The translations under genes were made by a program, and so were the position numbers. Shown here piece after piece: positions 1,040 through 57,438 of a stretch of 64,000 bases of DNA; within the stretch, counting starts at the first letter, position 1; every line of letters starts with the position of its first letter. Origin of the DNA: a virus. The stretch is taken from IMG/VR virus record IMGVR_UViG_3300029786_000322, one strand, 5' to 3'. The notes under the pieces were generated by a model. It did no database searches and had not been told where the DNA came from. It saw only the letters and a list, made by a program, of their open reading frames with translations.

Positions 1040-1068
1040 TTGACAATTTTCCAGATGGCGCAATATGT
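1040..1068 (+). promoter_or_regulatory. conserved promoter-like element copy 1 (TTGACA-N11-GGCGCAATATGT)
   Basis: One of 12 copies sharing the -35-like TTGACR, an 11-nt AT-rich spacer and an invariant GGCGCAATAT. Lies upstream of leader RNA copy 1 and the helicase gene. Confidence 0.65.
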
Positions 1069-1073
1069 GTATT

Positions 1074-1219
1074 GTAAAGGTCATAAACCGGGCTGCCAGG
1101 GTTACCGGCTGGCAGAAATCCTTTCGATATTTGTTTACGCTTCCGGGGAAACCCGGAAAGGAGCAGGAGGACAGCAGCACATGCTGCTTCCGGGTCCGAT
1201 TCCCGGATGCTTCTTTTAC
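1074..1219 (+). ncRNA. structured leader RNA, copy 1
   Basis: Three hairpins shared with copies at 12637 and 17663. CUGCCAG..CUGGCAG. CCGGGGAAACCCGG, which carries a GNRA loop. CCGGGUCCGAUUCCCGG, which has a tRNA T-loop-like UUCGAUU loop followed by a U-tract. A closing stem AAAGGAGC/GCUUCUUU has G-U covariation between copies. Confidence 0.55.
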
Positions 1220-1280
1220 AAGACCGCACGAAGCGGCGCAAAAACCACATAAACATGACAAAATACAGGGAGATTAAAAA

Positions 1281-3584
1281 ATGAATCAGAATAAGAAGAT
1301 AGCAGAGAAAAAATCAAGACCATACCAGCAGGAATGCATTGATAAGGTAGACAGCTTAAAAGAAGGAAGATTCCTGATTGCTCTTGCAACAGGGCTTGGG
1401 AAGACATGGATCTTCTCCCACTTTAAGAGATACGGAAGGGTACTTATTCTTTCACACAGGGATGAACTGGTCAACCAGCCGAGACGGTATTTCGACTGTA
1501 GTTTTGGCGTAGAAAAGGCAGAAAACCATTCCAATGGGGAAGAGGTAGTATCTGCGAGTGTTCAGACACTCAGCCATGACTCCCGTCTTAAGCAGTATAA
1601 GCCGGACGATTTCCACACGATCATCATTGATGAGGCGCACCACGCTGCCGCACCATCCTATAAGAAGATCTTAAATTATTTTTCCGGCGCTAAGCGTGTA
1701 ATCGGTGTCACGGCAACTCCGAAGCGTGGCGACAACGTCCGGTTAGATGACGTTTTTAACGAGATTATTTATGCAAAGGATCTTCGTTGGGGGATTAAAA
1801 ATAAATATTTAAGTCCGGTGCACTGCCGGGAGGTCCGTGCAAAATATTCCCTGAAAGGCGTAAAAAAATCTATGGGGGATTTTAATGTATCCGATTTGGA
1901 CGGTTGTATTACGGAAGAAGCTGTAATAAGTGTTGCAAAAGTTCTTACAGACTGTCTCCAGGAGAATCGGCATATTCTTATTTATTGTACTACTGTCAGA
2001 ACCTGTAATTTCCTGAAGGCAGTAGTTGACAAACTGCTCCCGGAAAAAGAACGTGGCAGTGTTGCTGTTTTATCAGGGAAAACACAGGAAGAAGATAGAA
2101 AAAATATGCTTGATGGTTTTATGAACGGGAGTGTCCGCGCCATTATTAACTGCATGGTTTTAACAGAAGGTACAGATCTTCCTATTGCGGATACCATTAT
2201 CAACTTCCGGCCGACGTGCAACGCGTCTTTGTATCAGCAGATCATCGGAAGAGGAACCCGGCTCTATGAAGGTAAGGAAAACTGTTTATGCATTGATATT
2301 CTTCCAGATGATGGCAGCGGGACAAGAAATCTGTGTACAGCTCTTACTCTTTTTGGTATAGATGCAAAACTTCTTGGAAAGAAACAGTCTCGAATGCTTG
2401 AAGGTGAGATTGATCCGCTTGAGATTAGCGATGAAATTGCAGGACGATTTGCAGAACTTACAAAGGCGTATGAATATCGGTTGGAGCAGGTTAATCGCTT
2501 TGTGCAGGAGCAGGAAGAAATTATATCTTCTGCGCGGAAGAAACCACATGCAGATTTAAGCGACCTTGCGCATGCAGTAGATAAATATAATTCAAAGAAA
2601 ATGGATGAATTCCAAAATGATTATGATTTTCTTGGAATGGATTACTCACTTATGCCGGATACGGAACATCGTTATTGTATCAAACCTACATGGAATGACC
2701 ATATTTACCTTGCTGATCCAGATGTTATGGGTAATACAACAGTTACGTTTGATCTTACTGCCAGTGTCGGGAAATATTATATCGGTGAAATGAAAATGCA
2801 GGATGCAATTTCATTTGTTCATGATTTTTGTATGGTATCTCCAGATTATATGAAATATTCCTGGAACGTGGCATTACAAGATGAATGGGGGAAAATAAAA
2901 GCAACTGAAAATCAAATTGGACGTCTTATGAATGAGTATGACGGGTTTCACAAAGGAAATATTAACAAACTTCAAGCATCCAGACTGATTGATCTTGCCT
3001 CTCGTATTTCGAAGATGAAGGCAGAGGGGAAAATGATGCTTATTACACCAAGAATGCAGGAAAAAACAATTGATAAAAAAAAGAAAATGTTTAAGGAAAT
3101 ACTCGAAAAGGAACTGAGGGCAAAAGAGCAGGGGCGTAGTGAGTTTGGAGAATTCCAGTCGAAAATCTTTGCTTTGGCAGAAAAAAAGAAAAAAGACGAA
3201 GAGAAATTAAAGAACCAAAAGCCTTTGGAAGAAGAAATGCTCGAAAATGGGGCGATTACAGTTAATATTGCTGTTTTTAGTTCAAAAAAAACAGCAAGCG
3301 ATGCGCAGATAAAATTTCTTGGTAATTTAAAAGATAAATTAAAAAACAGAGGAGTGGCTGTCGATAAAAAAATTCCTTATATAGGAATGGGAGCAGAAGA
3401 GGCAAGTGTATATATTACTATATTAAAAACGCTTGTAGATCGTAACGTAGACCTTATAAAATATGGTAAAAAAATTTATTTTAATCCAAATACAATCATG
3501 AGTGTTGTATTAAAACTAAAGGACACTTCATCCAGAGAAATTAAATGTTGTATCCCGTTCGAAAAAATAGAAGAATTGAGATAA
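1281..3584 (+). CDS. superfamily-2 DEAD/DEAH-box helicase (type III restriction res-like ATPase core) with a long Lys-rich C-terminal extension
   Basis: Walker A ATGLGKT, DEAH box IIIDEAHH, motif III VTATP, motif VI QQIIGRGTR. RBS AGGGAG precedes the ATG. Confidence 0.85.
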   Translation: MNQNKKIAEKKSRPYQQECIDKVDSLKEGRFLIALATGLGKTWIFSHFKRYGRVLILSHRDELVNQPRRYFDCSFGVEKAENHSNGEEVVSASVQTLSHDSRLKQYKPDDFHTIIIDEAHHAAAPSYKKILNYFSGAKRVIGVTATPKRGDNVRLDDVFNEIIYAKDLRWGIKNKYLSPVHCREVRAKYSLKGVKKSMGDFNVSDLDGCITEEAVISVAKVLTDCLQENRHILIYCTTVRTCNFLKAVVDKLLPEKERGSVAVLSGKTQEEDRKNMLDGFMNGSVRAIINCMVLTEGTDLPIADTIINFRPTCNASLYQQIIGRGTRLYEGKENCLCIDILPDDGSGTRNLCTALTLFGIDAKLLGKKQSRMLEGEIDPLEISDEIAGRFAELTKAYEYRLEQVNRFVQEQEEIISSARKKPHADLSDLAHAVDKYNSKKMDEFQNDYDFLGMDYSLMPDTEHRYCIKPTWNDHIYLADPDVMGNTTVTFDLTASVGKYYIGEMKMQDAISFVHDFCMVSPDYMKYSWNVALQDEWGKIKATENQIGRLMNEYDGFHKGNINKLQASRLIDLASRISKMKAEGKMMLITPRMQEKTIDKKKKMFKEILEKELRAKEQGRSEFGEFQSKIFALAEKKKKDEEKLKNQKPLEEEMLENGAITVNIAVFSSKKTASDAQIKFLGNLKDKLKNRGVAVDKKIPYIGMGAEEASVYITILKTLVDRNVDLIKYGKKIYFNPNTIMSVVLKLKDTSSREIKCCIPFEKIEELR

Positions 3585-3653
3585 TAATATTATATTAAAA
3601 TAAAAGTTTGTTACTATGTATAAAAATAAATACAATATTCTTTTAAAATTTTT

Positions 3654-3680
3654 TTGACGTTTGTTTAAATGGCGCAATAT
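3654..3680 (+). promoter_or_regulatory. conserved promoter-like element copy 2
   Basis: TTGACG-N11-GGCGCAATAT, directly upstream of the conserved 55-nt element and mini-array A. Confidence 0.6.
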
Positions 3681-3702
3681 TCATAACGAAGGAAGTAAAC
3701 AG

Positions 3703-3757: not shown

Positions 3758-3758
3758 A

Positions 3759-3992
3759 GTTGCACCACGCAAGGGTGCAGGGGTGAAATATTATACTGAA
3801 TCGTCGCTGCCTGCATAGATATAGTTGCATCCCTTATGGGATGTATGGGTTGAAATTCAATAGAAACAGATGCATTCGGAGGTGTTACAAGTTGCACCCC
3901 CGCAAGGGGTGCATGGGTTGAAAATAAGAAATGGTAGGAAGGAATTCAGATATGAACATTAGTTGCATCCCGCAAGGGTGCAGGGGTGAAGT
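3759..3992 (+). CRISPR. mini CRISPR array A: 4 type I-C-like repeats, 3 spacers of 33-35 nt
   Basis: Repeats at 3759-3789, 3824-3856, 3891-3925 and 3962-3992. They keep GTTGC...(G/T)GGTTGAAAT ends, but each has a different palindromic stem. Spacer 2 recurs in array D. Confidence 0.7.
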
Positions 3993-4151: not shown

Positions 4152-4799
4152 ATGTCAAAAACAAAAGGACTATCAAAGAAGAAAAAATTACTAAAAACGC
4201 TCATACATAAATACCTTCCATTGCAGGTACTACTTACTGTCTTTTTGTATGCAGTAATTGTATTTATTAACATTCCAATTAATAAATGGCTTACTCTCAA
4301 CTGTCAGAAATGGTCAAGTGGGGAATATCATTTTTATGATGCATTTTTTATTCTTCCATTTGCTGAACTGTTAATTTTTGCCATTATGTCTGCCGTTATT
4401 TGCGCTGTTTATTATTTTGTCAGTGGAATAATCGCATATAGGAATTACTGTTACATTCCACTTACAGAAGATGAAATCAAGAAAAAAGGATTTAAAAATG
4501 CAGATGAGTATTTTGCTTATGTGTGCAACATGTGTTCTTATGGTTTTAAAAATAATAAAGACTACATTCTTGTTGGTGATGAAGACCTCCAAAAAATGTT
4601 AACTACCTGTCTGCAGGTATTTCCTGATAATGGGACAATTTTTGGAATAAACCGCCATATGGTACGAAATATCATATGGGATCCTGATTTTCTTTCCGCA
4701 CTTGCACTAGCCAGTGACCAAAGGGCGGAAATCATCAATGGACGTGTTGTATTGTCTGGCACCACAAAAGATGGTGACAGAAAAGAATATAAGATATAA
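4152..4799 (+). CDS. membrane protein with two N-terminal TM helices, array-linked paralog family (copy 1)
   Basis: RBS GAGGGAAAATAATATG. Paralog of 25498-26145 with shared blocks INIPINKWLT and AYRNYCYIPLTEDEIK. Sits directly downstream of array A. Confidence 0.7.
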   Translation: MSKTKGLSKKKKLLKTLIHKYLPLQVLLTVFLYAVIVFINIPINKWLTLNCQKWSSGEYHFYDAFFILPFAELLIFAIMSAVICAVYYFVSGIIAYRNYCYIPLTEDEIKKKGFKNADEYFAYVCNMCSYGFKNNKDYILVGDEDLQKMLTTCLQVFPDNGTIFGINRHMVRNIIWDPDFLSALALASDQRAEIINGRVVLSGTTKDGDRKEYKI

Positions 4800-9780: not shown

Positions 9781-9815
9781 TTTCAGAAAAATTTTCAAGA
9801 AATTTCTGATTTACT

Positions 9816-9842
9816 TTGACGATTTTTCAAAAGGCGCAATAT
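9816..9842 (+). promoter_or_regulatory. conserved promoter-like element copy 3
   Basis: TTGACG-N11-GGCGCAATAT. Confidence 0.6.
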
Positions 9843-9885
9843 GTGTAATGAAGACGAAAATAAGACGATTTTGGAGGGAGAAAAA

Positions 9886-10215
9886 ATGAAAATTTACTTT
9901 GAGGATGGAAAACTTGTCAATATTAAGCAATTACCGATTGCGCCGGATTATGTGATTGATGCTTCTGATGGAGTAACTGCCTGCATGGATATGCTGGATC
10001 GAATTTACTCGACTAATCGAGATGCAGTTGTATATACAAATTCAATTATTGCATTCAGTAACCGGTATGCATGGAATGAAGAGAAGAAAATTTCGGATGT
10101 TTATATCAGAGATGGAGAGGGTATGGAATTTACCAATATTGCGCTTCTGACAAATAGACAACTTCGGGAGGGGCATAATCTCGCGAAGTTGTATCTTGGC
10201 GGTGAGTTCCGGTAG
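9886..10215 (+). CDS. hypothetical protein, 109 aa
   Basis: Start moved to MKIYFEDG, which has a GGAGGGAG RBS. The track start at 9841 lies inside the promoter element. Confidence 0.55.
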   Translation: MKIYFEDGKLVNIKQLPIAPDYVIDASDGVTACMDMLDRIYSTNRDAVVYTNSIIAFSNRYAWNEEKKISDVYIRDGEGMEFTNIALLTNRQLREGHNLAKLYLGGEFR

Positions 10216-12394: not shown

Positions 12395-12410
12395 CAGAAT
12401 ATGTAATTTA

Positions 12411-12456
12411 AGACATATACCGGGGTACTTGCGTATTCTGGTATATGTCTTTTTAT
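12411..12456 (+). terminator. rho-independent terminator
   Basis: 11-bp stem AGACATATACC / GGTATATGTCT followed by TTTTTAT. Confidence 0.7.
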
Positions 12457-12479: not shown

Positions 12480-12590
12480 TTTGATCATGGCGAAACGATA
12501 CCAAAGAAAGTCCGGTTTGCAGTGTACGAAAAATGCAACCACCGGTGCAATTTTTACTTCGAAAAGATCGGACTGGATATGGCGTAAGTT
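12480..12590 (+). pseudogene. internally deleted remnant of an HNH endonuclease gene (compare 49753-50169)
   Basis: Encodes ...KKVRFAVYEKCNHRC|NFYFEKIGLD, i.e. the N- and C-terminal ends of the HNH protein fused, with the catalytic core missing. Confidence 0.4.
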
Positions 12591-12602
12591 TTCAAAAAAT
12601 CT

Positions 12603-12629
12603 TTGACGATTTTTCAAAAGGCGCAATAT
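12603..12629 (+). promoter_or_regulatory. conserved promoter-like element copy 4
   Basis: TTGACG-N11-GGCGCAATATGTATAGTG. Confidence 0.65.
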
Positions 12630-12636
12630 GTATAGT

Positions 12637-12780
12637 GTAAAGGTCATAAACCGAGCTGCCAGGGTTACCGGCTGGCAGAAAATCCTTTCGAAAAATGTTT
12701 ACGTTCCGGGAAATCCCCGGAAAGGATAGTGGGTACGCAGCGCAAGTTATTCCGGGTTCGACTCCCGGATATCCTTTTTC
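12637..12780 (+). ncRNA. structured leader RNA, copy 2
   Basis: Same three-hairpin architecture and T-loop-like terminal hairpin plus U-tract as copy 1. Closing stem AAAGGAUA/UAUCCUUU. Confidence 0.55.
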
Positions 12781-13950: not shown

Positions 13951-14002
13951 GAAAGAAGCCGTGGAATCCCGACTTTTCTGCTGCATTGTGTGTATATTTT
14001 AA

Positions 14003-14075
14003 CGCCGCCTGCGGGATTCGAACCCGCGGATAAAGAGTTCAAAGCTCCCTGCGTTAACCTTTTCGCCAAGGCGGA
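14003..14075 (-). tRNA. tRNA-Gln(TTG), provisional
   Basis: T-arm GCGGG-TTCGAAT-CCCGC, anticodon loop CTTTGAA, U1 as in Gln tRNAs. Acceptor pair 1-72 is mismatched. Confidence 0.5.
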
Positions 14076-14076
14076 G

Positions 14077-14144
14077 CACACCCGGAAGGACTCGAACCCT
14101 CGTTACCGGTTTTGGAGACCAGTTTCTGTCCATCAGACAGGTGC
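14077..14144 (-). tRNA. tRNA-Trp(CCA), provisional (short D-arm)
   Basis: Anticodon arm CTGGT-CTCCAAA-ACCGG identical to the canonical Trp arm. T-loop TTCGAGT. Acceptor GCACCTG/CGGGTGT has two G-U pairs. Confidence 0.5.
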
Positions 14145-14148
14145 ATAA

Positions 14149-14219
14149 CAGGCGATAATGGAATCGAACCATTGTTTTCTGAGTCAGAATCAGATGTCTT
14201 ACCATTGAACGAATCGCCC
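14149..14219 (-). tRNA. tRNA-Gln(CTG), provisional
   Basis: Anticodon arm TCTGA-TTCTGAC-TCAGA, T-arm AATGG-TTCGATT-CCATT. Confidence 0.55.
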
Positions 14220-14221
14220 AG

Positions 14222-14295
14222 TATCCCCAAAGGGACTCGAACCCTTAACCGACAGATTAGAAATCTGTTGCTCTTTCCAATTGAGCTATGGGGAT
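14222..14295 (-). tRNA. tRNA-Arg(TCT)
   Basis: Acceptor ATCCCCA/TGGGGAT, D-stem GCTC/GAGC, anticodon arm ACAGA-TTTCTAA-TCTGT, T-arm AAGGG-TTCGAGT-CCCTT. Confidence 0.7.
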
Positions 14296-14301
14296 ATATA
14301 G

Positions 14302-14391
14302 CGCAGACACCGGGGATCGAACCCGGACAGCGGGTGTGCCGCATGCCACATTAGCAGTGTGGAGGGGTACCATTTACCTTTATATGTCTGC
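14302..14391 (-). tRNA. class II tRNA-Ser(GCT), provisional
   Basis: 90 nt. Anticodon arm CCACA-CTGCTAA-TGTGG, long variable arm GCGG..CCGC, T-arm CCGGG-TTCGATC-CCCGG, acceptor GCAGACA/TGTCTGC. Confidence 0.55.
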
Positions 14392-14396
14392 ATAAG

Positions 14397-14468
14397 AGGC
14401 ATCGGAGGGGATCGAACCCTCGCCTTCCGGGTTGCAGCCGGACGCCTTCGCCGTTTGGCTACGATGCC
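14397..14468 (-). tRNA. tRNA-Cys(GCA)
   Basis: Acceptor GGCATCG/CGATGCC, anticodon arm TCCGG-CTGCAAC-CCGGA, T-arm GAGGG-TTCGATC-CCCTC. Confidence 0.7.
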
Positions 14469-14498
14469 ATATAATTCTTCCCGATAAGAGAAGATGAG

Positions 14499-14582
14499 CG
14501 CTGGGGCAGGGAGTCGAACCCTGATATCCTTTCGGAATGACGGTTTTCAGGACCGTTGCTTTACCAGTTGAGCCACCACAGC
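14499..14582 (-). tRNA. class II tRNA-Ser(TGA), provisional (C33, one acceptor mismatch)
   Basis: 84 nt. Anticodon arm ACGGT-CCTGAAA-ACCGT, variable arm TCC-GAAA-GGA, T-arm CAGGG-TTCGACT-CCCTG. Confidence 0.5.
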
Positions 14583-14827
14583 AAAAATAAAAGCATACAC
14601 CTCTCAATCGAAAGATGTATGCTTTGCAATTCCAGGTATTTCCAATATTCTCCCGGAAATTTCCCTACAATGACCACATTTCTTTCAATTTGAGACAATA
14701 TTTATTTGCACGACAACTACGCCAGATACATGACTGCGACTGACTCATACTTGCCTGTGAATATTGTCTCATTACTGCTGTAATCATTGATTTTCCCTTC
14801 CTTTCCTTGGTTTTCTTGAATATTTAG

Positions 14828-14901
14828 TGTGTCTGGTGGGACTTGAACCCGACGACCCCACGATTAAAAGTCGCGTGCTCTGCCAACTGAGCTACAGACA
14901 C
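14828..14901 (-). tRNA. tRNA-Lys(TTT)
   Basis: Acceptor GTGTCTG/CAGACAC, D-arm GCTC-AGTTGGCA-GAGC, anticodon arm CGCGA-CTTTTAA-TCGTG. The T-stem has a 1-nt bulge. Confidence 0.65.
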
Positions 14902-14906
14902 ATAAG

Positions 14907-14978
14907 CGGATCAGGAGGGAATCGAACCCTCATCTTCCGGTAGACAGCCGGATGTACTAGCCGCTATACTACAGATCC
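14907..14978 (-). tRNA. tRNA-Asp(GTC), provisional (U37, one acceptor U-U)
   Basis: Anticodon arm TCCGG-CTGTCTA-CCGGA, T-arm GAGGG-TTCGATT-CCCTC. Confidence 0.55.
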
Positions 14979-14982
14979 ATAA

Positions 14983-15055
14983 AGCTCCCGTCCGGCTTCG
15001 AACCGGAAACCTTCTGATTACAAGTCAGATGCACTACCAGTTGTGCTACAGGAGC
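14983..15055 (-). tRNA. tRNA-Thr(TGT)
   Basis: Acceptor GCTCCTG/CGGGAGC, D-stem GCAC/GTGC, anticodon arm TCTGA-CTTGTAA-TCAGA, T-arm TCCGG-TTCGAAG-CCGGA. Confidence 0.7.
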
Positions 15056-15139
15056 AGGAACACTTCCGACGGGTGCTGCCCCGCTATCTCCGCCGTGACA
15101 GGGCGGTGACTCTGTTGTTTGTCCTCGGAAGTAAATAAG

Positions 15140-15221
15140 TGCGCCGGGGAGGACTCGAACCTCCGGTGTTTCTTTGTGGCTGATTTACAGTCAGCTGCTG
15201 TCGCCTCTGAGCCACCGACGC
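15140..15221 (-). tRNA. class II tRNA-Tyr(GTA)
   Basis: Anticodon arm GCTGA-CTGTAAA-TCAGC, long variable arm, T-arm GGAGG-TTCGAGT-CCTCC, acceptor GCGTCGG/CCGGCGC. Confidence 0.7.
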
Positions 15222-15226
15222 ATAAG

Positions 15227-15298
15227 CTGGTCCGGAGGGTCTCGAACCCTCAACGCCCCGGTTAACAGCCGGGTGCTCTACCATTGAGCTACGGATCA
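15227..15298 (-). tRNA. tRNA-Asn(GTT)
   Basis: D-arm GCTC-AATGGTA-GAGC, anticodon arm CCCGG-CTGTTAA-CCGGG, T-arm GAGGG-TTCGAGA-CCCTC. One A-C acceptor mismatch. Confidence 0.65.
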
Positions 15299-15299
15299 G

Positions 15300-15371
15300 A
15301 GCATGTGACGGGTCTCGAACCCGCCCGTCCTGCTTGGAAGGCAGGTGTGCCGCCAACAACACTTCACATGC
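15300..15371 (-). tRNA. tRNA-Gly(TCC)
   Basis: Acceptor GCATGTG/CACATGC, anticodon arm CCTGC-CTTCCAA-GCAGG, T-arm GCGGG-TTCGAGA-CCCGT. Confidence 0.7.
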
Positions 15372-15436
15372 ATGCGGATAAAAGAAGTGCCTGTTTTCTC
15401 TTATCCATTCAGTTTTTTTACCGCATCGCTGCGGAG

Positions 15437-15508
15437 TGGACAGGAGTGGTAACGATCCACCCTGTAAGGATTTTCAGTCCTTCGCTAATCCATCTCAGCT
15501 ACCTGTCC
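15437..15508 (-). tRNA. tRNA-Phe(GAA) with an atypical T-loop (A54/U58 swapped)
   Basis: Perfect acceptor GGACAGG/CCTGTCC, D-arm GCTG-AGATGGAT-TAGC, anticodon arm AAGGA-CTGAAAA-TCCTT, T-arm GGTGG-ATCGTTA-CCACT. Confidence 0.55.
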
Positions 15509-15880: not shown

Positions 15881-15909
15881 ATCATATCATACTGATCGTG
15901 AAGTGTCAA
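15881..15909 (-). promoter_or_regulatory. canonical sigma70-type promoter driving the tRNA cluster
   Basis: On the minus strand: TTGACA, a 17-nt spacer, then TATGAT. Confidence 0.6.
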
Positions 15910-15925
15910 CAGGAAATTTAAAAAA

Positions 15926-15994
15926 GGTTATTTTTGGTTATTTTGGTTATTTTTCAAAATAAAACAAAATAAAACAAAATAAAACAAATAAAAA
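15926..15994. repeat. short tandem repeats (GGTTATTTT x3, then AAAACAAAAT x3-4)
   Basis: Direct reading. The two AT-rich blocks are imperfect reverse complements of each other. Confidence 0.6.
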
Positions 15995-16694: not shown

Positions 16695-16728
16695 ATTAAA
16701 AATATTTCAAAAAATTTCCCGGAAATTT

Positions 16729-16755
16729 TTGACGAAATTTCAAAAGGCGCAATAT
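16729..16755 (+). promoter_or_regulatory. conserved promoter-like element copy 5
   Basis: TTGACG-N11-GGCGCAATAT. Divergent from the minus-strand motif at 16674. Confidence 0.6.
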
Positions 16756-16783
16756 ATGTAATGAAAGGAGGAGGAAATACAAA

Positions 16784-17598: not shown

Positions 17599-17628
17599 GA
17601 AAATATTTCAAAACATTTCCAAAAACTT

Positions 17629-17655
17629 TTGACGATTTTTTAAATGGCGCAATAT
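17629..17655 (+). promoter_or_regulatory. conserved promoter-like element copy 6
   Basis: TTGACG-N11-GGCGCAATATGTATCATG. Confidence 0.65.
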
Positions 17656-17662
17656 GTATCAT

Positions 17663-17805
17663 GTAAAGGTCATAAACCGAGCTGCCAGGGTTATCGGCTG
17701 GCAGAAATCTTTTCGATATTTGTTTACACTCCGGGGAAACCCGGAAGGGGTAGTGAGGACGCAGCGTGTGCTGTTTCCGGGTTCGATTCCCGGGTATCCC
17801 TTTTG
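17663..17805 (+). ncRNA. structured leader RNA, copy 3
   Basis: Same architecture as copies 1 and 2. CCGGGUUCGAUUCCCGG T-loop-like hairpin plus U-tract. Closing stem AAGGGGUA/UAUCCCUUUU. Confidence 0.55.
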
Positions 17806-20486: not shown

Positions 20487-20506
20487 GTAAGAAGATATAC
20501 TTTACT

Positions 20507-20724
20507 GTTGCGCCCCATTGGGTGCATGGGTTGAAATCTTTATGACCTTCTGAAAAGTGAGGGCATCTTAGTTGCACCCCCGCAAGGGATGTATGGGTTG
20601 AAATTCAATAGAAACAGATGCATTCGAAGGCGTTACAAGTTGCACCCCGCGAGGGGTGTATGGGTTGAAATTGCAGAAAGCTCAGGATTGGAAGGTTGCA
20701 TCCTATGGGATGCATGGATTGAAA
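20507..20724 (+). CRISPR. mini CRISPR array D: 4 repeats, 3 spacers
   Basis: Repeats at 20507-20537, 20571-20604, 20639-20671 and 20695-20724 with divergent stems. Spacer 2 (20605-20637) is near-identical to spacer 2 of array A. Starts 20 nt after the upstream stop. Confidence 0.7.
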
Positions 20725-20764
20725 CGAACATATTTGTTATTATTTATTATTGAGATCAGAAAGG

Positions 20765-20800
20765 TCTGCAGTCAGTTAATCTGGCTGCAGATTTTTTTTG
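20765..20800 (+). terminator. rho-independent terminator
   Basis: TCTGCAGTCAG-ttaat-CTGGCTGCAGA followed by T8. Confidence 0.7.
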
Positions 20801-20828
20801 CAATTTTTTAAAAATTTTCCAAAATCTT

Positions 20829-20855
20829 TTGACGATTTTTTAAAAGGCGCAATAT
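20829..20855 (+). promoter_or_regulatory. conserved promoter-like element copy 7
   Basis: TTGACG-N11-GGCGCAATAT. Its flank CCAAAATCTTTTGAC matches spacer 3 of the main array. Confidence 0.6.
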
Positions 20856-20863
20856 ACATATTG

Positions 20864-21085
20864 AAGGGATAAACAGGGGCTTACCGTTTGTTTCTTCAAT
20901 AAGAGTTTTTCTCTTATATGCCTCCTTAAGTTTCCTGCGCTGCATTTACAGCATTTTGGCAGCGCAGGGGGAATCCACAGGACTGCATTTGACGTTGTGT
21001 GGCGGCCTGCTCATCCGGTTCAACCCCGGAGGATTCCCTTACCGCTTATTTTTGCGGAGACAAAAATTTTAAAAAATATTCAAAA
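20864..21085 (+). ncRNA. candidate small structured RNA between promoter copies 7 and 8
   Basis: No ORF with an RBS. Several strong hairpins, including CCTGCGCTGC...GCAGCGCAGG, GGGAATCC...GGATTCCC and CCGC-ttattttt-GCGG. Confidence 0.35.
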
Positions 21086-21090
21086 ATTCT

Positions 21091-21117
21091 TTGACGATTT
21101 TTTAAAAGGCGCAATAT
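21091..21117 (+). promoter_or_regulatory. conserved promoter-like element copy 8 (cas operon promoter)
   Basis: TTGACG-N11-GGCGCAATAT, 95 nt upstream of cas5. Confidence 0.65.
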
Positions 21118-21170
21118 GTGTATTGAAGGAATAAACAGGGGCTTGCCGCTGTTGATTACCAGAGTTAAAA

Positions 21171-21200
21171 GTTGTGCCCCTATGGGGTGCATGGGTAATA
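21171..21200 (+). CRISPR. solitary degenerate CRISPR repeat in the cas5 5' UTR
   Basis: GTTGTGCCCCTATGGGGTGCATGGGTAATA has the repeat 5' end and hairpin but a degenerate 3' handle. Confidence 0.35.
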
Positions 21201-23621: not shown

Positions 23622-23622
23622 G

Positions 23623-24534: not shown

Positions 24535-24784
24535 AAAGATTTCCAGAGATTACAAGGCAACCCGCGTTTTGCGGGCTGCATCTGCTTGGGTTATGCCGAA
24601 ATGTAGAATTCCGGTGCGAACTGAAAGCTTACATAGCTTCTCTGGGAGACTCGCACCGGAAATGGAGGTATTAGTGTACAAAAAGAACACAAAACCCAAC
24701 TGTATAAGGCCGTTTGAGAACAATTAATTAGAGGAATTGTTTATATTTTGGCGATCGGGAGAGTTGTTTCTGTTCACTTTTACA

Positions 24785-25482
24785 GCTACGCCCCATGGAG
24801 GGGCGTATGGATTGAAAATGATTGTTATTGTTTTTTATTCATGGAGAGGAAAGCTACGCCCCATGGAGGGGCGTATGGATTGAAAAGTAAGGTTTCGTCT
24901 CGAAGCCTTTATTCTGTTTTGCTACGCCCCATGGAGGGGCGTATGGATTGAAATACCAAAATCTTTTGACATTCTTATAAATGGTAACAGCTACGTCTTA
25001 TGGGGTACGTATGGATTGAAATCATAATAATTGTAGAGATCTCAATACAAAATAAAGCTGCGTCTCATGGAATACGTATGGATTGAAATGAAAAGGCGAG
25101 TTTGCGAAAGCAGATATTGGAATGTTGCGTCTCGTGGAGTACGTATGGATTGAAATTCCAACTTTAACTACATAACTATCCTGATAAACTTGCTGCACCC
25201 CATGGAGAGTGTATGGATTGAAATTTAAAAAATCATGGATAACATCTGCGATAAGACGTTGCACCTCGCTAGGGGTGTATGGGTTGAAATTTCCATAATC
25301 GGTAGCCAATTATTATCATTAGGTGTTGCACCCCATAGAGGGTGTATGGATTGAAATTATATAAAAATGATGAATATGTAAAAAAAATAAAAGAGTTACG
25401 CTCCATGGAGTGCGTATGGCTTGAAACCTCTTATTTTTTTAAAGATATCACAATTACGCCCAAAGTGGGCTTACGTAAATTT
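24785..25482 (+). CRISPR. main CRISPR array: 10 repeats of 33 nt plus a degenerate terminal repeat, spacers of 33-37 nt
   Basis: Repeats at 24785, 24853, 24921, 24990, 25057, 25124, 25192, 25258, 25325 and 25395. A degenerate eleventh sits at 25454-25482. The first three are identical (GCTACGCCCCATGGAGGGGCGTATGGATTGAAA). Later ones keep the GYTRC 5' end and TATGGATTGAAAT 3' handle but have different, internally complementary stems. Confidence 0.85.
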
Positions 25483-37750: not shown

Positions 37751-37780
37751 TAAGAAAATAAATAAAATTTTAAATTTCCT

Positions 37781-37807
37781 TTGACGAATTTTGAGATGGA
37801 TAAATAT
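37781..37807 (+). promoter_or_regulatory. conserved promoter-like element copy 9 (degenerate: GGATAAATAT)
   Basis: TTGACG with the same 11-nt spacing, but the downstream box is diverged. Confidence 0.4.
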
Positions 37808-37902
37808 ATATACAGAAGATAAAAATTGCCATACAGGAGACAGAACGCATAGAATTTTCTGCCATCCTTTAAATATCAGAAAATTAAAGGAGAATAATTT
37901 CC

Positions 37903-41257: not shown

Positions 41258-41402
41258 TATAATGAATTACGTTTTAAATTTATGGCGAAAAATCCACAGG
41301 CTTGCCTGTGGGATGAAAGCTACATTTTTCACTTACTTGTTTCAACAGTTGGACACATAAGTGAAACTACAGTGATCAAATACATTGAGGAGCAGAAAAC
41401 AC

Positions 41403-42791: not shown

Positions 42792-42812
42792 AGTTGTAGA
42801 AAGGATATATGA

Positions 42813-43193
42813 ATGATTCTAACAGAACATGAACAGGTAATTATTAACAATATGAGACACCCATCAATTCGTACAGTAACGGCGAGCAAATCGTATAAAG
42901 ATTTATCCGATGAAGAGCTTACTTCACTAATTGGCAAAATAGATGACTATGTGAATGAAATTGGTGAAACACAGAGAGCTTTCGGTAATTATGATGAATT
43001 TTACGTATTAGAATTTGATTCGATTAAGGCTCATCTAGTAGATGAATGTCAACGCAGAAAAATTATGCTTAGAATGCAAGGCGATAAATTTGACGTTTAT
43101 CGAAAAGAATATAATGAAATAGTAAATAGCGCAATGAATCATCCTGTTGGATGCAGCCAGACTCATGAAACGGGCGAAAGAGACAACTGTTAA
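42813..43193 (+). CDS. hypothetical ORF inside the insert that splits tnpB
   Basis: 126 aa, RBS AAAGGATATATGAATG. Its end runs into repeat copy 2. Confidence 0.35.
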   Translation: MILTEHEQVIINNMRHPSIRTVTASKSYKDLSDEELTSLIGKIDDYVNEIGETQRAFGNYDEFYVLEFDSIKAHLVDECQRRKIMLRMQGDKFDVYRKEYNEIVNSAMNHPVGCSQTHETGERDNC

Positions 43194-43596
43194 TAACAAA
43201 GGCAAGATCAACAGGAAGAAACGTTTTGGAAAGTCGGTAAAGAACCGGTGCCCGGGCGGTTTCCAGGCTGCCGTGGAAAATAAGTTCAAAACATCCGGCG
43301 GTACATATATAGAAGTACCCAATAATTACAGGGCAAGCCAGTATGACCACACGGCAGATGATTACATAAAAAAGAAGCTGTCCGACAGGATGTATAAACT
43401 TACAGACGGGACACTGGTACAAAGGGACTGGTACTCATCATTCCTGTTGTACTGCTACAATTACAGAACCAATGATATAGATAAAAAGAAATGTGCTGCA
43501 GAATTTAAAAAATGCTACAGCATGGAAAAGGAATTAATTGAATGGATCAAAAAACATAAGATCAAAGTGCTGAACAGCGGAATTAAAACCGCTTGA
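43147..43596 (+). pseudogene. tnpB: displaced C-terminal fragment of tnpB, including the RuvC-III-like QRDWYSSF region
   Basis: In frame with the repeat. Continues ...HTADDYIKKKLSDRMYKLTDGTLVQRDWYSSF, which aligns to the TnpB C-terminus. Confidence 0.5.
43153..43370 (+). repeat. direct repeat copy 2
   Basis: See copy 1. Confidence 0.7.
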
Positions 43597-44023
43597 CTAT
43601 ATGTTCGTAGGGAGACTGACTATGCTTCCTTGTCGCCAGACAGAAATTTACTGAAAAACAACTAGCTTTCTTTACATAATAATGTGGCCGTAGGGCTGCA
43701 TGGTAATAAAGTCCTTGCTTGAAATAGACTTATACCTGTATTCCAAAGCCTGCAAATGGTGTACGATTACAGGCAAAACTTGAGAGCAAGAACCCCACAG
43801 GCTTGCCTGTGGAAGTAGTCAGTTATGCCGTATTAAACGATTGTCCTCCTGGAACAACGACATATTTTTTTGTTGAAAAAATGTTCAGAAGAAAAATCAA
43901 ATGAGAATATTAGAGATAACATTCTTAAATCAAGTAACACTTATAGTTTCATGGAGAGATAGGTTAACTACTCCTGACAATGCAGGAGACTTTTTCTTAG
44001 ATATTTTATTAAATAAATGACCG

Positions 44024-44059
44024 ATAGCCTTGTGTTTTTTACACAGGGCTATTTTTTTC
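44024..44059 (+). terminator. rho-independent terminator
   Basis: ATAGCCTTGTGT-tttttt-ACACAGGGCTAT followed by T7. Confidence 0.6.
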
Positions 44060-44098
44060 TAATTTCGCAAAAATTTTTAAAAACTTTTCAAGATTTCT

Positions 44099-44125
44099 TT
44101 GACGATTTTTCAAATGACGCAATAT
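44099..44125 (+). promoter_or_regulatory. conserved promoter-like element copy 10
   Basis: TTGACG-N11-GACGCAATAT. Confidence 0.55.
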
Positions 44126-44168
44126 CTATAGTGTAAGGATAAAAATGCGAAGTACAAGGAGGAAAAAT

Positions 44169-48472: not shown

Positions 48473-48509
48473 TAAAATTTAAAAAATGAAAGAAAATACA
48501 GATTTGACT

Positions 48510-48536
48510 TTGACGATTTTATAAATGGCGCAATAT
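48510..48536 (+). promoter_or_regulatory. conserved promoter-like element copy 11
   Basis: TTGACG-N11-GGCGCAATATGTATAGTG. Confidence 0.65.
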
Positions 48537-48818
48537 GTATAGTGAATGGAGAAATAGGGGTTCTCTTAAATCTTAACTTAGCCAATTCAAGGCTTAAAAA
48601 ACATTACAATAACAGAAACGGAGGAAAAATTATGAAGAAAAGAACAAAATTAGTAGGATTGATCCTTTTGGCAGCACTTTTGACGGCCACTTTTTCTGGG
48701 TGTTCCTATGAAGAGGAATATGTTCCAGTAGATACACAGACTGATGTTTTACAAAATACCGAAAACAGCAATGGCACTGTAAGTATTCCAAACTTAATAT
48801 GATACGGGAAAGTATTCT

Positions 48819-54140: not shown

Positions 54141-54233
54141 AAACAGTAAGTGAATATGCAAATCTTGTCTGGAAAATTGCAGGTTGGAATGTGTGCCTGG
54201 ATGAAATCTTAAAGTGAATGGGAGTAGAATTGT

Positions 54234-55931: not shown

Positions 55932-56263
55932 TGTACAGAAAAATAATTTTGGGAATAATGCTATTTTTTATGGCACGTTTGTTGTATTTGTATATAGCAT
56001 GGTGGGTGTGCGGAAGCTCAAAAAAACTAATGCATGCTTTGCGTGCACTGTGGTATTTATTCCTGGCTGCTCTTGCTCTTTACTTCCGGTATCAGGGTAA
56101 TTTTTGGGAGAAAGCGACAGAGTTTTCATTTACGAATTGGAAAGATATTGTGTTTCTTGTGATGTATGCGATCCCTATTGTGTTAACAGTTGCAGATGTC
56201 GTGCTTACAAGGAAATACGATAAGAAAGAGAAAAATAAGGAGGATTCAAAATGTACAGAGTGA
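55928..56263 (+). CDS. membrane protein, 111 aa
   Basis: Overlapping ATGA start. Three TM helices. Confidence 0.45.
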   Translation: MMYRKIILGIMLFFMARLLYLYIAWWVCGSSKKLMHALRALWYLFLAALALYFRYQGNFWEKATEFSFTNWKDIVFLVMYAIPIVLTVADVVLTRKYDKKEKNKEDSKCTE

Positions 56264-56727
56264 TCATCTTGGCTTTGCTATTTGCTTTGCTTGCGAGATT
56301 CGCATATAAGCTTGGAGTGTCGAATAAAGTTCTTCAGCCAGAGTATTTTTGATCTGGGGGATATTTACAATGAAGTTGTTGAAGATCCGGAAGAAGAAAG
56401 CTTGCGAAGACATCCTCGAATACAAAGGTCATTCCTGGAGGGGGGAAACATACAAAAATTTTCAAGTTAAAGGAAGGCTGCAAGATCAAAGTAAGTGCCT
56501 GTTAATGGTGAGGTGTGTATGTCTAAATATTACGGGGATATTCCATGTGTGAAACTAAATGGAATTGTACATATAACTAAGTGTGCGACAGAATGCCTGT
56601 GTGGTCAAAAATGGAGTTACTCGCGATCTTCAAATAGAGAAGATTTTAAAACAGAGAATATAATTTGGAGAAGTCTGAATGCGGTAACCTGTGAAAAATG
56701 TAAAGAACTAGGAGTTAAAAAGGGAAA

Positions 56728-56949
56728 ATGAATCAAATCGAAAAATGCAATAAATTTGCAGAAAATTTCTTTTCTTCCTTATGGAAACCTCATGGAATCA
56801 TCATGATTGTTCTAGGAGTTATTTTAGTTGTTAATTCATTTAAACTTAAAGACGATGAGGATGATTCTTGGTGGGCTGGTCTAATAGGCGGTATTGTCGT
56901 AATTTTTTGGGGTGTTTTAACGATTATATTGGGACACAATTATTCGTAA
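56728..56949 (+). CDS. small membrane protein, paralog of 51394-51588
   Basis: Shared block listed at 51394. Confidence 0.45.
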   Translation: MNQIEKCNKFAENFFSSLWKPHGIIMIVLGVILVVNSFKLKDDEDDSWWAGLIGGIVVIFWGVLTIILGHNYS

Positions 56950-56976
56950 AACAAAAATAAGAAAGGATCAGAGAAA

Positions 56977-57285
56977 ATGGGATTACAAATGAGAAAAATA
57001 CCATATGGCTACACATTTTACCCGGTGTTGTGGAAAGGAGAAGCGTATGCTGTTGATCTTCTTTGGAGTAGAGATGGAATCGTGTCCGGGTACGTTATGG
57101 TGCACATATGCCAGTACATAGAGAAAAAAATATTTTTGTACGGATATTCTGGTAAACGGCTGTTCAATGCAGGGAAAATCTACAATGAGCACAGAGTGCC
57201 CCTTCTGACCTACTGGATCAGGAGGTTACCAGTGATACTTCTTCGAAGTACCACAACGGGTGAAAGCACAGAGGATCAAAGATAA
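56977..57285 (+). CDS. hypothetical protein, 102 aa
   Basis: RBS AAAGGATCAGAGAAAATG. Confidence 0.45.
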   Translation: MGLQMRKIPYGYTFYPVLWKGEAYAVDLLWSRDGIVSGYVMVHICQYIEKKIFLYGYSGKRLFNAGKIYNEHRVPLLTYWIRRLPVILLRSTTTGESTEDQR

Positions 57286-57411
57286 TCAATGGCATTATCA
57301 GAGATTATTTATTTTTCTGATTATTGATATACTTCTCAACTGCATCTGCTGTACGGTCACTTACAGTTTTATTCTCTGTAAAAATAAAATTTAAAAAGTT
57401 TCCAAAATCCT

Positions 57412-57438
57412 TTGACAAAATCACAAAAGGCGCAATAT
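57412..57438 (+). promoter_or_regulatory. conserved promoter-like element copy 12 (drives tnpB)
   Basis: TTGACA-N11-GGCGCAATATGTATACCG. Confidence 0.65.

What the first reader, a model, noticed from the sequence alone, without database searches (positions are those of the whole stretch)
1040..57438. Twelve copies of a rigidly spaced promoter-like element, TTGAC(G/A)-N11-GGCGCAATAT
In all 12 copies the distance between TTGACR and GGCGCAATAT is exactly 11 nt. Positions are 1040, 3654, 9816, 12603, 16729, 17629, 20829, 21091, 37781, 44099, 48510 and 57412. The downstream box is invariant in 10 of 12 copies. With a 17-nt spacer the -10 would be ATATGT-like, a poor sigma70 match. The TGTATAGT that would fit an extended -10 is too far away. 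The conservation therefore suggests recognition by a dedicated, possibly phage-encoded, sigma or transcription factor, or a combined promoter and operator. The element precedes the helicase, the cas operon, tnpB, the leader RNAs and array A.
Basis: seen in the sequence. Interest (0 to 1): 0.6.

Follow-up and report, generated by a model that had tools for sequence, protein, structure and literature searches.

The report
Megaplasmid-wide promoter with unusual -10
The twelve repeats are real: they are copies of one standard promoter that a very common human-gut Lachnospiraceae megaplasmid places in front of its operons, and its second recognition box matches no described sigma-factor consensus, so what reads it is still unknown.

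Summary
There are 10 exact copies of TTGACR-N11-GGCGCAATAT and 2 near copies, all on the + strand, against 0.09 expected by chance. A profile search finds exactly these 12 and nothing in between.

Each copy is about 70 nt long:
- UP-like A-tracts
- TTGACG
- a variable spacer
- ARAW-GGCGCAATAT
- an invariant T-G eight nt after the box, the likely start site

All copies lie between genes, often just after a terminator. They precede operons, three ~145-nt ncRNAs, a mini CRISPR array, cas5c-cas8c-cas7 and tnpB.

In about 1.1 Mb of related human-gut contigs, 249 boxes have TTGAC at exactly N11 and none at any other spacing. In diverged orthologues the two boxes are kept while the spacer and flanks drift.

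The host element looks like a conjugative megaplasmid, not a phage. The motif is absent from IMG/VR and nearly absent from 185,000 reference genomes.

The geometry matches the SigN promoters of Bacillus plasmid pBS32. No sigma gene was found in about 328 kb of sampled DNA, and a small Roseburia faecis chromosomal islet carries two such promoters with no regulator gene.

Verdict: a real promoter family with a new consensus. Whether host sigma-A, a dedicated sigma or an added regulator reads it is unresolved.

The parts
1012..1080 (+). Promoter cassette 1. Core 1040-1066 (TTGACA-N11-GGCGCAATAT); predicted start G at 1074. Drives ncRNA 1074-1217, then the ResIII/DEAD helicase 1281-3584.
3626..3694 (+). 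Promoter cassette 2. Core 3654-3680; predicted start 3688. Drives a mini CRISPR array (repeats 3822-3856 and 3890-3924) and ORF 4152-4799.
9788..9856 (+). Promoter cassette 3. Core 9816-9842; predicted start 9850. A T-run lies just upstream. Drives the ORF that starts at 9886 after a GGAGGG ribosome-binding site.
12575..12643 (+). Promoter cassette 4. Core 12603-12629; predicted start 12637. Preceded by a 19-pair terminator at 12410-12451. Drives ncRNA 12637-12780.
16701..16769 (+). Promoter cassette 5. Core 16729-16755; predicted start 16763. The ribosome-binding site AAAGGAGG begins at 16764. Transcription must therefore start by about position 36 of the element (counted from the first T of TTGACG), which places the -10 inside the box.
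17601..17669 (+). Promoter cassette 6. Core 17629-17655; predicted start 17663. Drives ncRNA 17663-17805.
20801..20869 (+). Promoter cassette 7. Core 20829-20855; predicted start 20863. Preceded by an 18-pair terminator at 20758-20798. Followed by about 230 nt without an ORF.
21063..21131 (+). Promoter cassette 8. Core 21091-21117; predicted start 21125. Drives the type I-C cas5c-cas8c-cas7 operon, 21211-24534.
37753..37821 (+). Promoter cassette 9, the most divergent copy. Core 37781-37807 with box GGATAAATAT; predicted start 37815. Drives ORF 37903-39348.
44071..44139 (+). Promoter cassette 10. Core 44099-44125 with box GACGCAATAT; predicted start 44133. Preceded by a 13-pair terminator at 44023-44053. 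Drives a DUF5052 lipoprotein gene.
48482..48550 (+). Promoter cassette 11. Core 48510-48536; predicted start 48544. Drives a small secreted-protein operon.
57384..57452 (+). Promoter cassette 12. Core 57412-57438 (TTGACA); predicted start 57446. Drives tnpB, 57486-59015.
15881..15935 (-). Contrast promoter on the minus strand. It has the same kind of A/T-tract (aaatttcct) and TTGACA, but a canonical 17-nt spacer and an extended -10 (TGaTATGAT). It precedes a small ORF and the 13-tRNA cluster.
24955..24988 (+). CRISPR spacer. It is a copy of a sibling variant of this promoter (TTGACATTCTTATAAATGGtAAC). The targets, in the R. faecis chromosome and in gut contigs, carry a 5'-TTC PAM.

Best explanation
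Each copy is a complete bipartite promoter for a bacterial multisubunit RNA polymerase. It is the standard promoter of a very prevalent human-gut Lachnospiraceae conjugative-type megaplasmid lineage.

Anatomy, counted from the first T of TTGACG as position 1:
- A-tracts at -28 to -15 and -7 to -4, placed like the distal and proximal UP subsites that bind the alpha C-terminal domain
- TTGACR at 1-6, a consensus -35 for sigma region 4
- a spacer at 7-13 that is free to vary
- ARAW-GGCGC-AATAT at 14-27
- R-T-R-T-A-N-T-G at 28-35, with an invariant pyrimidine-purine step T34-G35 taken as -1/+1
- a short conserved initial transcribed stretch, G(T)AARG

With +1 at G35 the -35 sits at -34 to -29, GGCGC at -17 to -13 (the extended -10 position) and AATATR at -12 to -7, which gives a fixed 16-bp spacer.

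Shown: the copies are discrete, intergenic, co-oriented and rigidly spaced, and the two boxes are under selection.

Inferred: the start site, and the identity of the factor. I think the polymerase is the host core enzyme with host sigma-A docked through the UP and -35 half. On this view the GGCGC-AATAT half is a deliberately non-consensus -10 region that also carries element-specific control.

My odds: about 0.9 that this is a promoter; about 0.45 that host sigma-A reads it, with or without an added regulator; about 0.3 that a dedicated sigma reads it.
For: Non-randomness and discreteness: 11 matches against 0.09 expected, and 12 profile hits separated from noise by about 8 orders of magnitude in E-value.

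Promoter context:
- All copies are on the coding strand in intergenic gaps.
- Strong terminators lie directly upstream of 12603, 20829 and 44099.
- Canonical sigma-70-like matches are not enriched anywhere in the window: 51 against 50.9, 72 against 65 and 47 against 58. These cassettes are therefore the only over-represented promoter-like signal for about 85 genes.

Conservation profile over 61 non-redundant contexts: UP-like A-tracts, T34 at 1.4 bits and G35 at 1.5 bits, with decay to background by position 41-47.

Start site: the ribosome-binding site of ORF 16784 begins at position 36, so the start and the -10 must lie at or inside the box.

Rigid spacing: 252 of 252 profile hits have N11. 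Anchoring on the box alone, 249 have TTGAC at N11 and 0 at any other spacing.

Footprinting:
- In an orthologue whose coding sequence is 85% identical, the cas-operon promoter core is 44/45 identical while the 5' UTR is scrambled.
- In another orthologue the upstream region and spacer differ, but TTTGACGA and ATGGCGCAATAT are kept.

Host RNA polymerase:
- The -35 is consensus.
- parA and a ParB_N-domain gene sit behind this promoter.
- A roughly 700-bp R. faecis chromosomal islet carries two family promoters next to host pst/pho genes, with no regulator gene.
- No sigma gene was found in about 328 kb of non-redundant DNA.
Against: There are no transcript 5' ends, so the start site and the -10 register are inferred.

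No register with a 16-18 nt spacer gives a -10 with both A-11 and T-7. Only CAATAT at 15 nt does. This is atypical for sigma-A.

The invariance of GGCGC at -17 to -13 is not a known sigma-A preference; sigma-A prefers TRTG there.

A canonical extended -10 promoter with the same UP and -35 style exists on the same element. The box is therefore not simply how -10 elements look in this host.

The sigma search used phmmer with three queries plus partial Pfam coverage. It reached only part of a roughly 300-kb element, so a divergent or distant sigma gene could have been missed.

Positions 1-6 and 14-27 of the conservation profile are inflated, because the loci were fetched with a pattern that fixed those positions.
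Confidence: 0.55

Rival explanations
1. Dedicated-sigma regulon. The megaplasmid encodes its own sigma-70-family factor, or a sigma-appropriating factor. Its region 4 reads TTGACG and its regions 2 and 3 read GGCGCAATAT. This would give the element an orthogonal, host-independent transcription programme, as SigN does for pBS32.
For: - The architecture equals that of the Rend-seq-mapped SigN promoters: TTTACG at -34 to -29, N11, a 5-bp block CCAGA at -17 to -13, A-11 T-10 A-9, and +1 G. About 15 such copies sit on one strand of pBS32.
- Spacing is rigid.
- The -10 half is invariant and non-canonical.
- The motif is confined to this family of mobile elements. IMG/VR gave only single hits that look like chance. 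Of 185,579 reference species genomes, two Lachnospiraceae genomes carry full cassettes; four other single hits look like chance.
- A canonical sigma-A promoter coexists on the element for the tRNA cluster, which implies two promoter classes.
Against: - No sigma-70-family ORF was found with SigA, RpoE or SigN queries among 5,122 ORFs of all loci.
- Pfam and PHROGs found none in the window proteins, nor in 66 further ORFs for hits better than about 1e-9.
- The first ORFs behind the cassettes in related loci, those scanned, are not sigma genes, so no autoregulated sigma gene like sigN was seen.
- The R. faecis chromosomal islet has two such promoters and no sigma gene.
- The UP and -35 half is textbook sigma-A.
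Confidence: 0.3
2. Plain strong sigma-A promoter copied around the element. On this view the apparent invariance reflects recent duplication or gene conversion of one promoter module rather than any special recognition.
For: - The -35 is consensus and the upstream tracts are UP-like.
- The copies share about 70-85 nt.
- 20829 and 21091 are a tandem duplicate that is a single copy in the diverged orthologue.
- No specific factor was found.
Against: - The spacer and flanks have diverged strongly between copies and between orthologues while the box and the spacing have not. That pattern is selection, not recency.
- The kept sequence is a poor sigma-A -10 in every standard register.
- A canonical -10 is used elsewhere on the same element.
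Confidence: 0.12
3. Not primarily a promoter. The box would be a dispersed protein-binding site for another process, such as partition, silencing (stoperator-like) or replication, that happens to lie next to -35-like sequences.
For: The box is asymmetric, has many copies and always has one orientation relative to transcription. In this it resembles the 13-bp asymmetric stoperators of mycobacteriophage L5; this comparison rests on my own knowledge.
Against: - The box never occurs with TTGAC at any spacing other than N11.
- It always lies at the start of a transcription unit, never inside genes.
- Conservation includes UP-like tracts and a pyrimidine-purine start step.
- There is no shared ssDNA hairpin and no conserved dyad.
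Confidence: 0.04

Closest known systems
SigN (ZpdN)-dependent promoters of Bacillus subtilis plasmid pBS32 (PMC6751061, Table 2)
   Same: - A promoter family confined to one large plasmid, with about 15-19 near-identical copies on one strand, each heading an operon.
- Identical geometry: TT(T/G)ACG at -34 to -29, exactly 11 variable nt, a conserved 5-bp block at -17 to -13 with G-14, then A-11 T-10 A-9, and a G start.
   Different: - The -35 is TTGACG, not TTTACG.
- The block is GGCGC, not CCAGA.
- The -10 is AATATR, not TATAAW.
- No SigN homologue or any other sigma gene was found near the cassettes.
- The host is a clostridial Lachnospiraceae, not Bacillus.
Canonical sigma-A / sigma-70 promoters with an UP element (for example rRNA promoters and phage early promoters such as T4 or SPO1 early; my own knowledge)
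   Same: - Consensus -35 and A/T-tract UP-like upstream region.
- Terminator-then-promoter layout.
- Many strong, similar copies on one mobile genome, driving early or cargo genes.
   Different: - No TATAAT-like hexamer with A-11 and T-7 at 16-18 nt; only 1 of 12 copies passes.
- An invariant GC block where TRTG would sit.
- Zero tolerance in spacing.
Asymmetric operator/stoperator sites of mycobacteriophage L5 repressor gp71, and the global KorA/KorB operators of IncP plasmids (my own knowledge)
   Same: Many copies of one short site on a mobile element. The sites overlap or adjoin promoter hexamers and are oriented with transcription. They allow element-wide repression and a burst of expression on entry into a new cell.
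   Different: No repressor was identified. The box is only about 10-14 bp, is not palindromic, and sits exactly where sigma reads the -10 and extended -10. It is never found apart from a -35 at fixed distance, except in one subclass that lacks a -35.

Membership tests
Sigma-70/sigma-A housekeeping promoter | -35 hexamer close to TTGACA | tested here: met
   TTGACG in 10 of 12 copies and TTGACA in 2 of 12. TTGAC is invariant in all related copies.
Sigma-70/sigma-A housekeeping promoter | -10 hexamer close to TATAAT, with A at -11 and T at -7, 16-18 bp from the -35 | tested here: not met
   The consensus scan accepts only the copy at 3654 (AATATT at 16 nt). The registers give AATATR at 16, ATATRT at 17 and TATRTR at 18. 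Only CAATAT, at 15 nt, has both A-11 and T-7.
Sigma-70/sigma-A housekeeping promoter | Transcription starts 6-8 nt after the -10, at a purine | not testable with these tools
   There is only indirect support: the conserved T34-G35 step, the ribosome-binding-site constraint at 16729, and the ncRNA terminal stem that starts at position 37.
Extended -10 (TGnTATAAT) promoter | TG at -15/-14, one base upstream of a good -10 | tested here: not met
   The sequence at -15/-14 is C-G, so G-14 only. TATAGT occurs in 3 copies, 22 nt from the -35, and its TG is out of register.
SigN-type plasmid regulon (pBS32) | Bipartite TTTACG-N11-CCAGATATAA consensus | tested here: not met
   The spacing and positions are the same, but the bases differ in both boxes.
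SigN-type plasmid regulon (pBS32) | Cognate sigma gene carried on the same element | tested here: inconclusive
   phmmer with SigN, SigA and RpoE found no hit better than E = 0.17 among 5,122 ORFs from about 328 kb of non-redundant DNA. The full roughly 300-kb element could not be read.
SigN-type plasmid regulon (pBS32) | Promoters restricted to the mobile element and absent from host chromosomes | tested here: met
   The GTDB scan of 185,579 species returned eight loci. Four are full cassettes: one in the R. faecis chromosomal islet and three on one 28-kb Lachnospiraceae contig. The other four are single hits that look like chance.
Sigma-28/SigD (TAAA-N15-GCCGATAT) promoter | TAAA -35 and GCCGATAW -10 | tested here: not met
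   By inspection of the sequences: the box shares only the 3' ATAT, and there is no TAAA at the required distance. The consensus used is from my own knowledge.
Single-strand (Frpo-like) leading-region promoter | The strand folds into a long hairpin that rebuilds the -35 and -10 boxes | tested here: not met
   ssDNA folds of the 12 copies give z-scores from -2.8 to +1.8 with no shared structure.
'Hodor' conjugative megaplasmids (PMC12934698), as the carrier element | >200-kb human-gut Bacillota plasmid with ParA/ParB and a type I-C system with a degraded array; TnpB genes are frequent | tested here: inconclusive
   - Contigs are 200-332 kb and carry the identical Cas8c.
- ParA and a ParB_N-domain gene, SSB, LPD1 and PcfJ are present.
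- There is I-C Cascade with degenerate arrays.
- The window's G+C content (about 0.40) is below the 44.6-47.1% reported.
- Rep_3, the T4SS and sortases were not seen in the DNA available.

The most novel reading that the evidence does not exclude
The ARAW-GGCGC-AATAT half is read by a megaplasmid-encoded factor that standard profiles do not recognise. This could be a very divergent sigma, or a sigma-appropriating or sigma-docking protein. It may be connected with the stand-alone RNA polymerase beta-prime clamp fragment that sits behind one of these promoters on a related contig. Such a factor would give the element an orthogonal transcription system. That system could keep about 50 operons under one switch and let the plasmid work across distant Bacillota hosts. 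Rival elements, and the element's own Cas3-less Cascade, would target sibling versions of the promoter.
Probability: 0.25. Interest if true: 0.75.

Novelty: new member of a known kind. Interest (0 to 1): 0.45.

Why it matters
The carrier element is among the most widespread large mobile elements in human-gut metagenomes. Identical proteins are indexed in more than 1,500 blocks of the contig collection, on contigs up to 330 kb. Its regulation is undescribed: the only paper on what may be the same class of plasmids contains neither 'promoter' nor 'sigma' in its text.

One roughly 70-nt cassette appears to head most of its operons. These include Cascade, partition genes, tnpB and three ncRNAs.

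This gives three things:
- a direct handle for mapping the element's transcription units in existing metatranscriptomes
- a compact candidate promoter part, probably strong, for genetically difficult Lachnospiraceae
- a clean test case for whether large gut plasmids run an orthogonal, SigN-like transcription programme

The finding that the element's own CRISPR array carries a spacer against a sibling promoter, with a correct PAM, suggests that promoters of this family are targets in conflicts between elements or in addiction systems.

Tried and rejected
- Phage origin. Megablast of window 1-25000 against INPHARED found only a tRNA match. IMG/VR gave 52 single hits that look like chance, with none of the flanking conservation. 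No structural genes were found by Pfam or PHROGs.
- PLSDB plasmids: no match.
- Host alternative-sigma regulon. Rejected because the motif is essentially absent from reference genomes.
- GCGC methylation switch, prompted by the element's C5 methylase. GCGC is not depleted or enriched (94 observed, 91 expected), and only 10 of the 94 sites lie in cassettes.
- Palindromic operator TTG-N4-TTTT-N2-AAAA-N4-CAA. The T-tract half is not kept in orthologues, for example AAATGGCAGAT in L174.
- Single-strand hairpin promoter.
- MITE or mobile cassette. There are no terminal repeats or target duplications, and the conservation fades gradually upstream.
- Downstream TRTAnT hexamer as the -10. It would put the start inside the ribosome-binding site of ORF 16784, and it has G at -11 in 5 of 12 copies.
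- Literature search for the box sequence: only unrelated papers.
- Sigma gene hunt: local phmmer with three queries, Pfam on window ORFs, on ORFs behind cassettes and on 66 further ORFs, and PHROGs. All were negative.
- Supplementary tables of the Hodor paper were not available.

Full report

Yes. The pattern TTGACR-N11-GGCGCAATAT, allowing two mismatches, occurs 11 times. All copies are on the + strand, at the listed coordinates. Dinucleotide-preserving shuffles give 0.09 on average and never more than 2.

Ten copies are exact. The copy at 44099 has GACGCAATAT. The twelfth, at 37781, has GGATAAATAT.

A profile HMM built from the twelve recovers exactly those twelve, with E from 8e-18 to 3e-10. 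The next hit has E = 0.05, so this is a discrete class and not the tail of a distribution.

The repeat finder shows that the shared unit is about 85 nt, not 27 (family D1).

**2. What carries it?**

Almost all ORFs are on the + strand. Pfam finds:
- a ResIII/DEAD helicase
- a C5 DNA methylase and an N6/N4 DNA methylase
- a flotillin-like protein
- a PcfJ-like protein
- YopX
- tnpB
- a type I-C cas5c-cas8c-cas7 operon, with no cas3, cas1, cas2 or cas4 in view

There are many short or degenerate I-C arrays and solitary repeats, and a cluster of 13 tRNAs on the minus strand.

The exact Cas8c protein lies on human-gut metagenome contigs of 200-332 kb and is indexed in 1,584 blocks of the collection.

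The ten kilobases upstream of the window hold an LPD1 polyvalent-protein gene and one more cassette. About 13 kb downstream of the window hold two more cassettes.

Related loci place parA, a ParB_N-domain gene and SSB genes in the same family of contigs.

No phage structural gene was seen. No phage or PLSDB record matches.

This fits the 'Hodor' conjugative megaplasmids described in a 2026 preprint. Those are >300 kb, from Bacillota, and have a type I-C system with a degraded array; TnpB genes are frequent in them. I could not prove identity, and the window's G+C content (about 0.40) is below the reported 44.6-47.1%.

The likely hosts are Lachnospiraceae. A scan of 185,579 species genomes returned eight loci. 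The four with the full cassette are in the Roseburia faecis JCM 17581 chromosome (one) and on a 28-kb contig of a Lachnospiraceae isolate (three).

**3. Anatomy and comparative evidence**

A scan of metagenome contigs returned more than 116 loci, and their record names point to human-gut samples.

Across all fetched loci, 252 profile hits fall into 83 non-redundant contexts. The TTGAC-to-box distance is 11 in every one.

I then anchored on the box alone (GGCN[CTA]AATAT) in 1.14 Mb. Of these boxes, 249 have TTGAC at exactly N11, none has it at any other distance, and 28 have none; most of those 28 look like chance.

The positional profile shows:
- A-tracts at -28 to -15 and -7 to -4, relative to the first T of TTGACG
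- the -35 hexamer
- a loosely conserved T-rich spacer
- A-R-A-W
- GGCGC, where positions 21-22 are the ones that occasionally vary
- AATAT, almost invariant
- R-T-R-T-A-N-T-G, with T34 at 1.4 bits and G35 at 1.5 bits
- (T)AARG, with decay to background by position 41-47

Positions 1-6 and 14-27 are inflated by how the loci were fetched. The other positions are not.

Two orthologue comparisons act as footprints:
- The cas-operon promoter in a contig whose coding sequence is 85% identical keeps 44 of 45 core positions, while the 5' UTR is scrambled.
- The orthologue of the 17629 copy has an unrelated upstream region and a different spacer (AAATGGCAGAT), but keeps TTTGACGA and ATGGCGCAATAT.

There are therefore two recognition modules held at a fixed distance. 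That is the signature of bipartite sigma-type recognition, not of a contiguous operator.

**4. Why a promoter, and where it starts**

- Every copy lies in an intergenic gap, co-oriented with what follows.
- Strong terminators sit just upstream of 12603, 20829 and 44099.
- Canonical TTGACA-16/18-TATAAT matches are no more frequent than in shuffles in any third of the window. These cassettes are thus the only over-represented promoter-like signal.
- At 16729 the ribosome-binding site AAAGGAGG begins 9 nt after the box. Transcription must therefore begin by about position 36, and the -10 must lie within the box. This excludes the downstream TRTAnT hexamer.
- The conserved pyrimidine-purine step T34-G35 is the obvious -1/+1.
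- The three ~145-nt ncRNAs behind 1040, 12603 and 17629 fold with a terminal stem. It pairs positions 37-41 with the nucleotides just before the terminal U-run. This is consistent with that start but shows no covariation.

**5. Which factor reads it?**

With +1 at G35 the layout is TTGACG at -34 to -29, GGCGC at -17 to -13 and AATATR at -12 to -7.

The Rend-seq-mapped SigN promoters of B. subtilis plasmid pBS32 have exactly this layout: TTTACG, N11, CCAGA, TATAAW and a G start. I recovered 15 such sites on one strand in 44 kb of pBS32. That is the closest known analogue, and it argues for a dedicated sigma.

Several points argue against a dedicated sigma:
- No sigma-70-family ORF appears among 5,122 ORFs of all loci with SigA, RpoE or SigN as queries. 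The loci hold about 328 kb of non-redundant DNA.
- Pfam and PHROGs scans of window proteins, of ORFs behind cassettes and of 66 further ORFs found none.
- The UP and -35 half is textbook sigma-A.
- parA and a ParB_N-domain gene depend on this promoter.
- A roughly 700-bp islet in the R. faecis chromosome, flanked by pst/pho genes, contains two family promoters and no regulator gene.

Points against plain sigma-A:
- No 16-18 nt register gives both A-11 and T-7; only 1 of 12 copies passes.
- GGCGC is invariant where sigma-A prefers TRTG.
- The same element uses a canonical extended -10 promoter for its tRNA cluster, with a similar A/T-tract and TTGACA.

I therefore commit to 'promoter' at about 0.9. 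I split the recognition question: host sigma-A, probably with element-specific control through the box, about 0.45; dedicated sigma about 0.3; simple copied sigma-A promoter about 0.12; non-promoter site about 0.04.

**6. Ideas tested and dropped**

- Single-strand hairpin promoter: fold z-scores from -2.8 to +1.8 with no common structure.
- GCGC methylation switch: GCGC observed 94, expected 91.
- Palindromic operator: the dyad is not kept in orthologues.
- Host alternative-sigma regulon: the motif is absent from reference genomes.
- Phage promoter: IMG/VR hits look like chance.
- The box sequence appears in no relevant paper. The Hodor preprint contains neither 'promoter' nor 'sigma' in its text.

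**7. Verdict**

This is a real, strongly selected promoter family specific to one group of mobile elements. It has a new consensus and an unresolved reader. It belongs to a known kind, alongside the plasmid and phage promoter regulons.

It would rise in importance if the box proves to be read by an unrecognised element-encoded factor. A few hours of read mapping and annotation of a full contig, which these tools could not do, would decide most of this.

Noticed in passing
window 24955-24988; L064 7815-7850; L177 about 10426; L086: One spacer of the array at 24784-25432 is a copy of a sibling promoter variant (TTGACATTCTTATAAATGGCAAC). It matches 32-33 of 34 positions in the R. faecis chromosome and in gut contigs, each time preceded by the type I-C PAM 5'-TTC. 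The 12 resident promoters differ from the spacer at 10 or more positions. With a Cas3-less Cascade, this looks like CRISPR interference with transcription aimed at a promoter.
   Followed up: partly
L064 7560-8000; L177 10180-10700; L086 35-200 (reverse strand): A CreTA-like islet in the Roseburia faecis chromosome, next to pst/pho genes. A standard cassette drives a solitary I-C-like repeat plus a 'spacer'. About 240 nt later the variant promoter drives a 29-aa hydrophobic and basic peptide (MITYSTLFEFCKLIVAIISLIFQIFNHKK) behind a strong ribosome-binding site. The peptide gene is frameshifted in one metagenome copy. It may be a toxin kept silent by the megaplasmid's Cascade.
   Followed up: partly
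window 1074-1217, 12637-12780, 17663-17805: Three paralogous ~145-nt ncRNAs directly behind cassettes. Each has conserved hairpins, a tRNA-like T-arm (TCCGGGTTCGATTCCCGG) and a U-run. The only Rfam similarity is a weak one to the tRNA-like part of the Deinococcus Y RNA (19 bits, E = 0.8). These may be Y-RNA-like or tRNA-mimic RNAs.
   Followed up: partly
L136 9555-10814 (contig OGQJ01000027.1): A stand-alone 419-aa protein homologous to the N-terminal clamp region of RNA polymerase beta-prime, roughly residues 88-340, which by residue range includes the sigma-docking clamp helices. Pfam RNA_pol_Rpb1_1 gives 4e-14 and PDB beta-prime chains give 8.5e-23. It lies about 1.1 kb downstream of a cassette and is followed by a 392-aa HTH_3 protein. 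No other polymerase subunits are nearby.
   Followed up: partly
window 21211-24534; repeats at 3822-3924, 17188, 18810, 20503-20725, 24784-25427, 45943, 62779-62872; 21166-21200: A type I-C Cascade operon with no cas3 or adaptation genes in view. Six scattered mini-arrays or solitary repeats have drifting repeat sequences. A degenerate repeat sits inside the 5' UTR of cas5c.
   Followed up: partly
window 15881-15935 (minus strand), tRNAs 14002-15508: The only near-consensus housekeeping promoter in the window (TTGACA-17-TGaTATGAT). It heads a small ORF and a 13-tRNA cluster on the opposite strand. It shares the A/T-tract and -35 style of the cassettes but not their box.
   Followed up: yes
window 20829-21117 against L075 2986-3060: The two cassettes 262 nt apart upstream of cas5c correspond to a single cassette in a diverged orthologue. 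The intervening roughly 230-nt ORF-less transcript unit is therefore lineage-specific.
   Followed up: partly
L084 3498, L095, L106 (two sites), L107: A recurring relative that lacks the -35: CCCCCAAAAAAGAAAGATGGCTCAATATAT. It keeps the ARAW-GGCnCAATAT half but has no TTGAC. It may be a second promoter subclass.
   Followed up: no
whole window: GGCC (36 observed, 89 expected) and CTAG (19 observed, 41 expected) are strongly depleted, while GCGC and GATC are not. This suggests avoidance of particular restriction systems by an element that carries two orphan-looking methylases.
   Followed up: no
window 41385-43596 and 57486-59015: Two tnpB-type genes. The first is disrupted by a 99%-identical 225-nt internal direct duplication (42568-42792 and 43151-43375). 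The second sits directly behind a cassette rather than in an obvious IS context.
   Followed up: no
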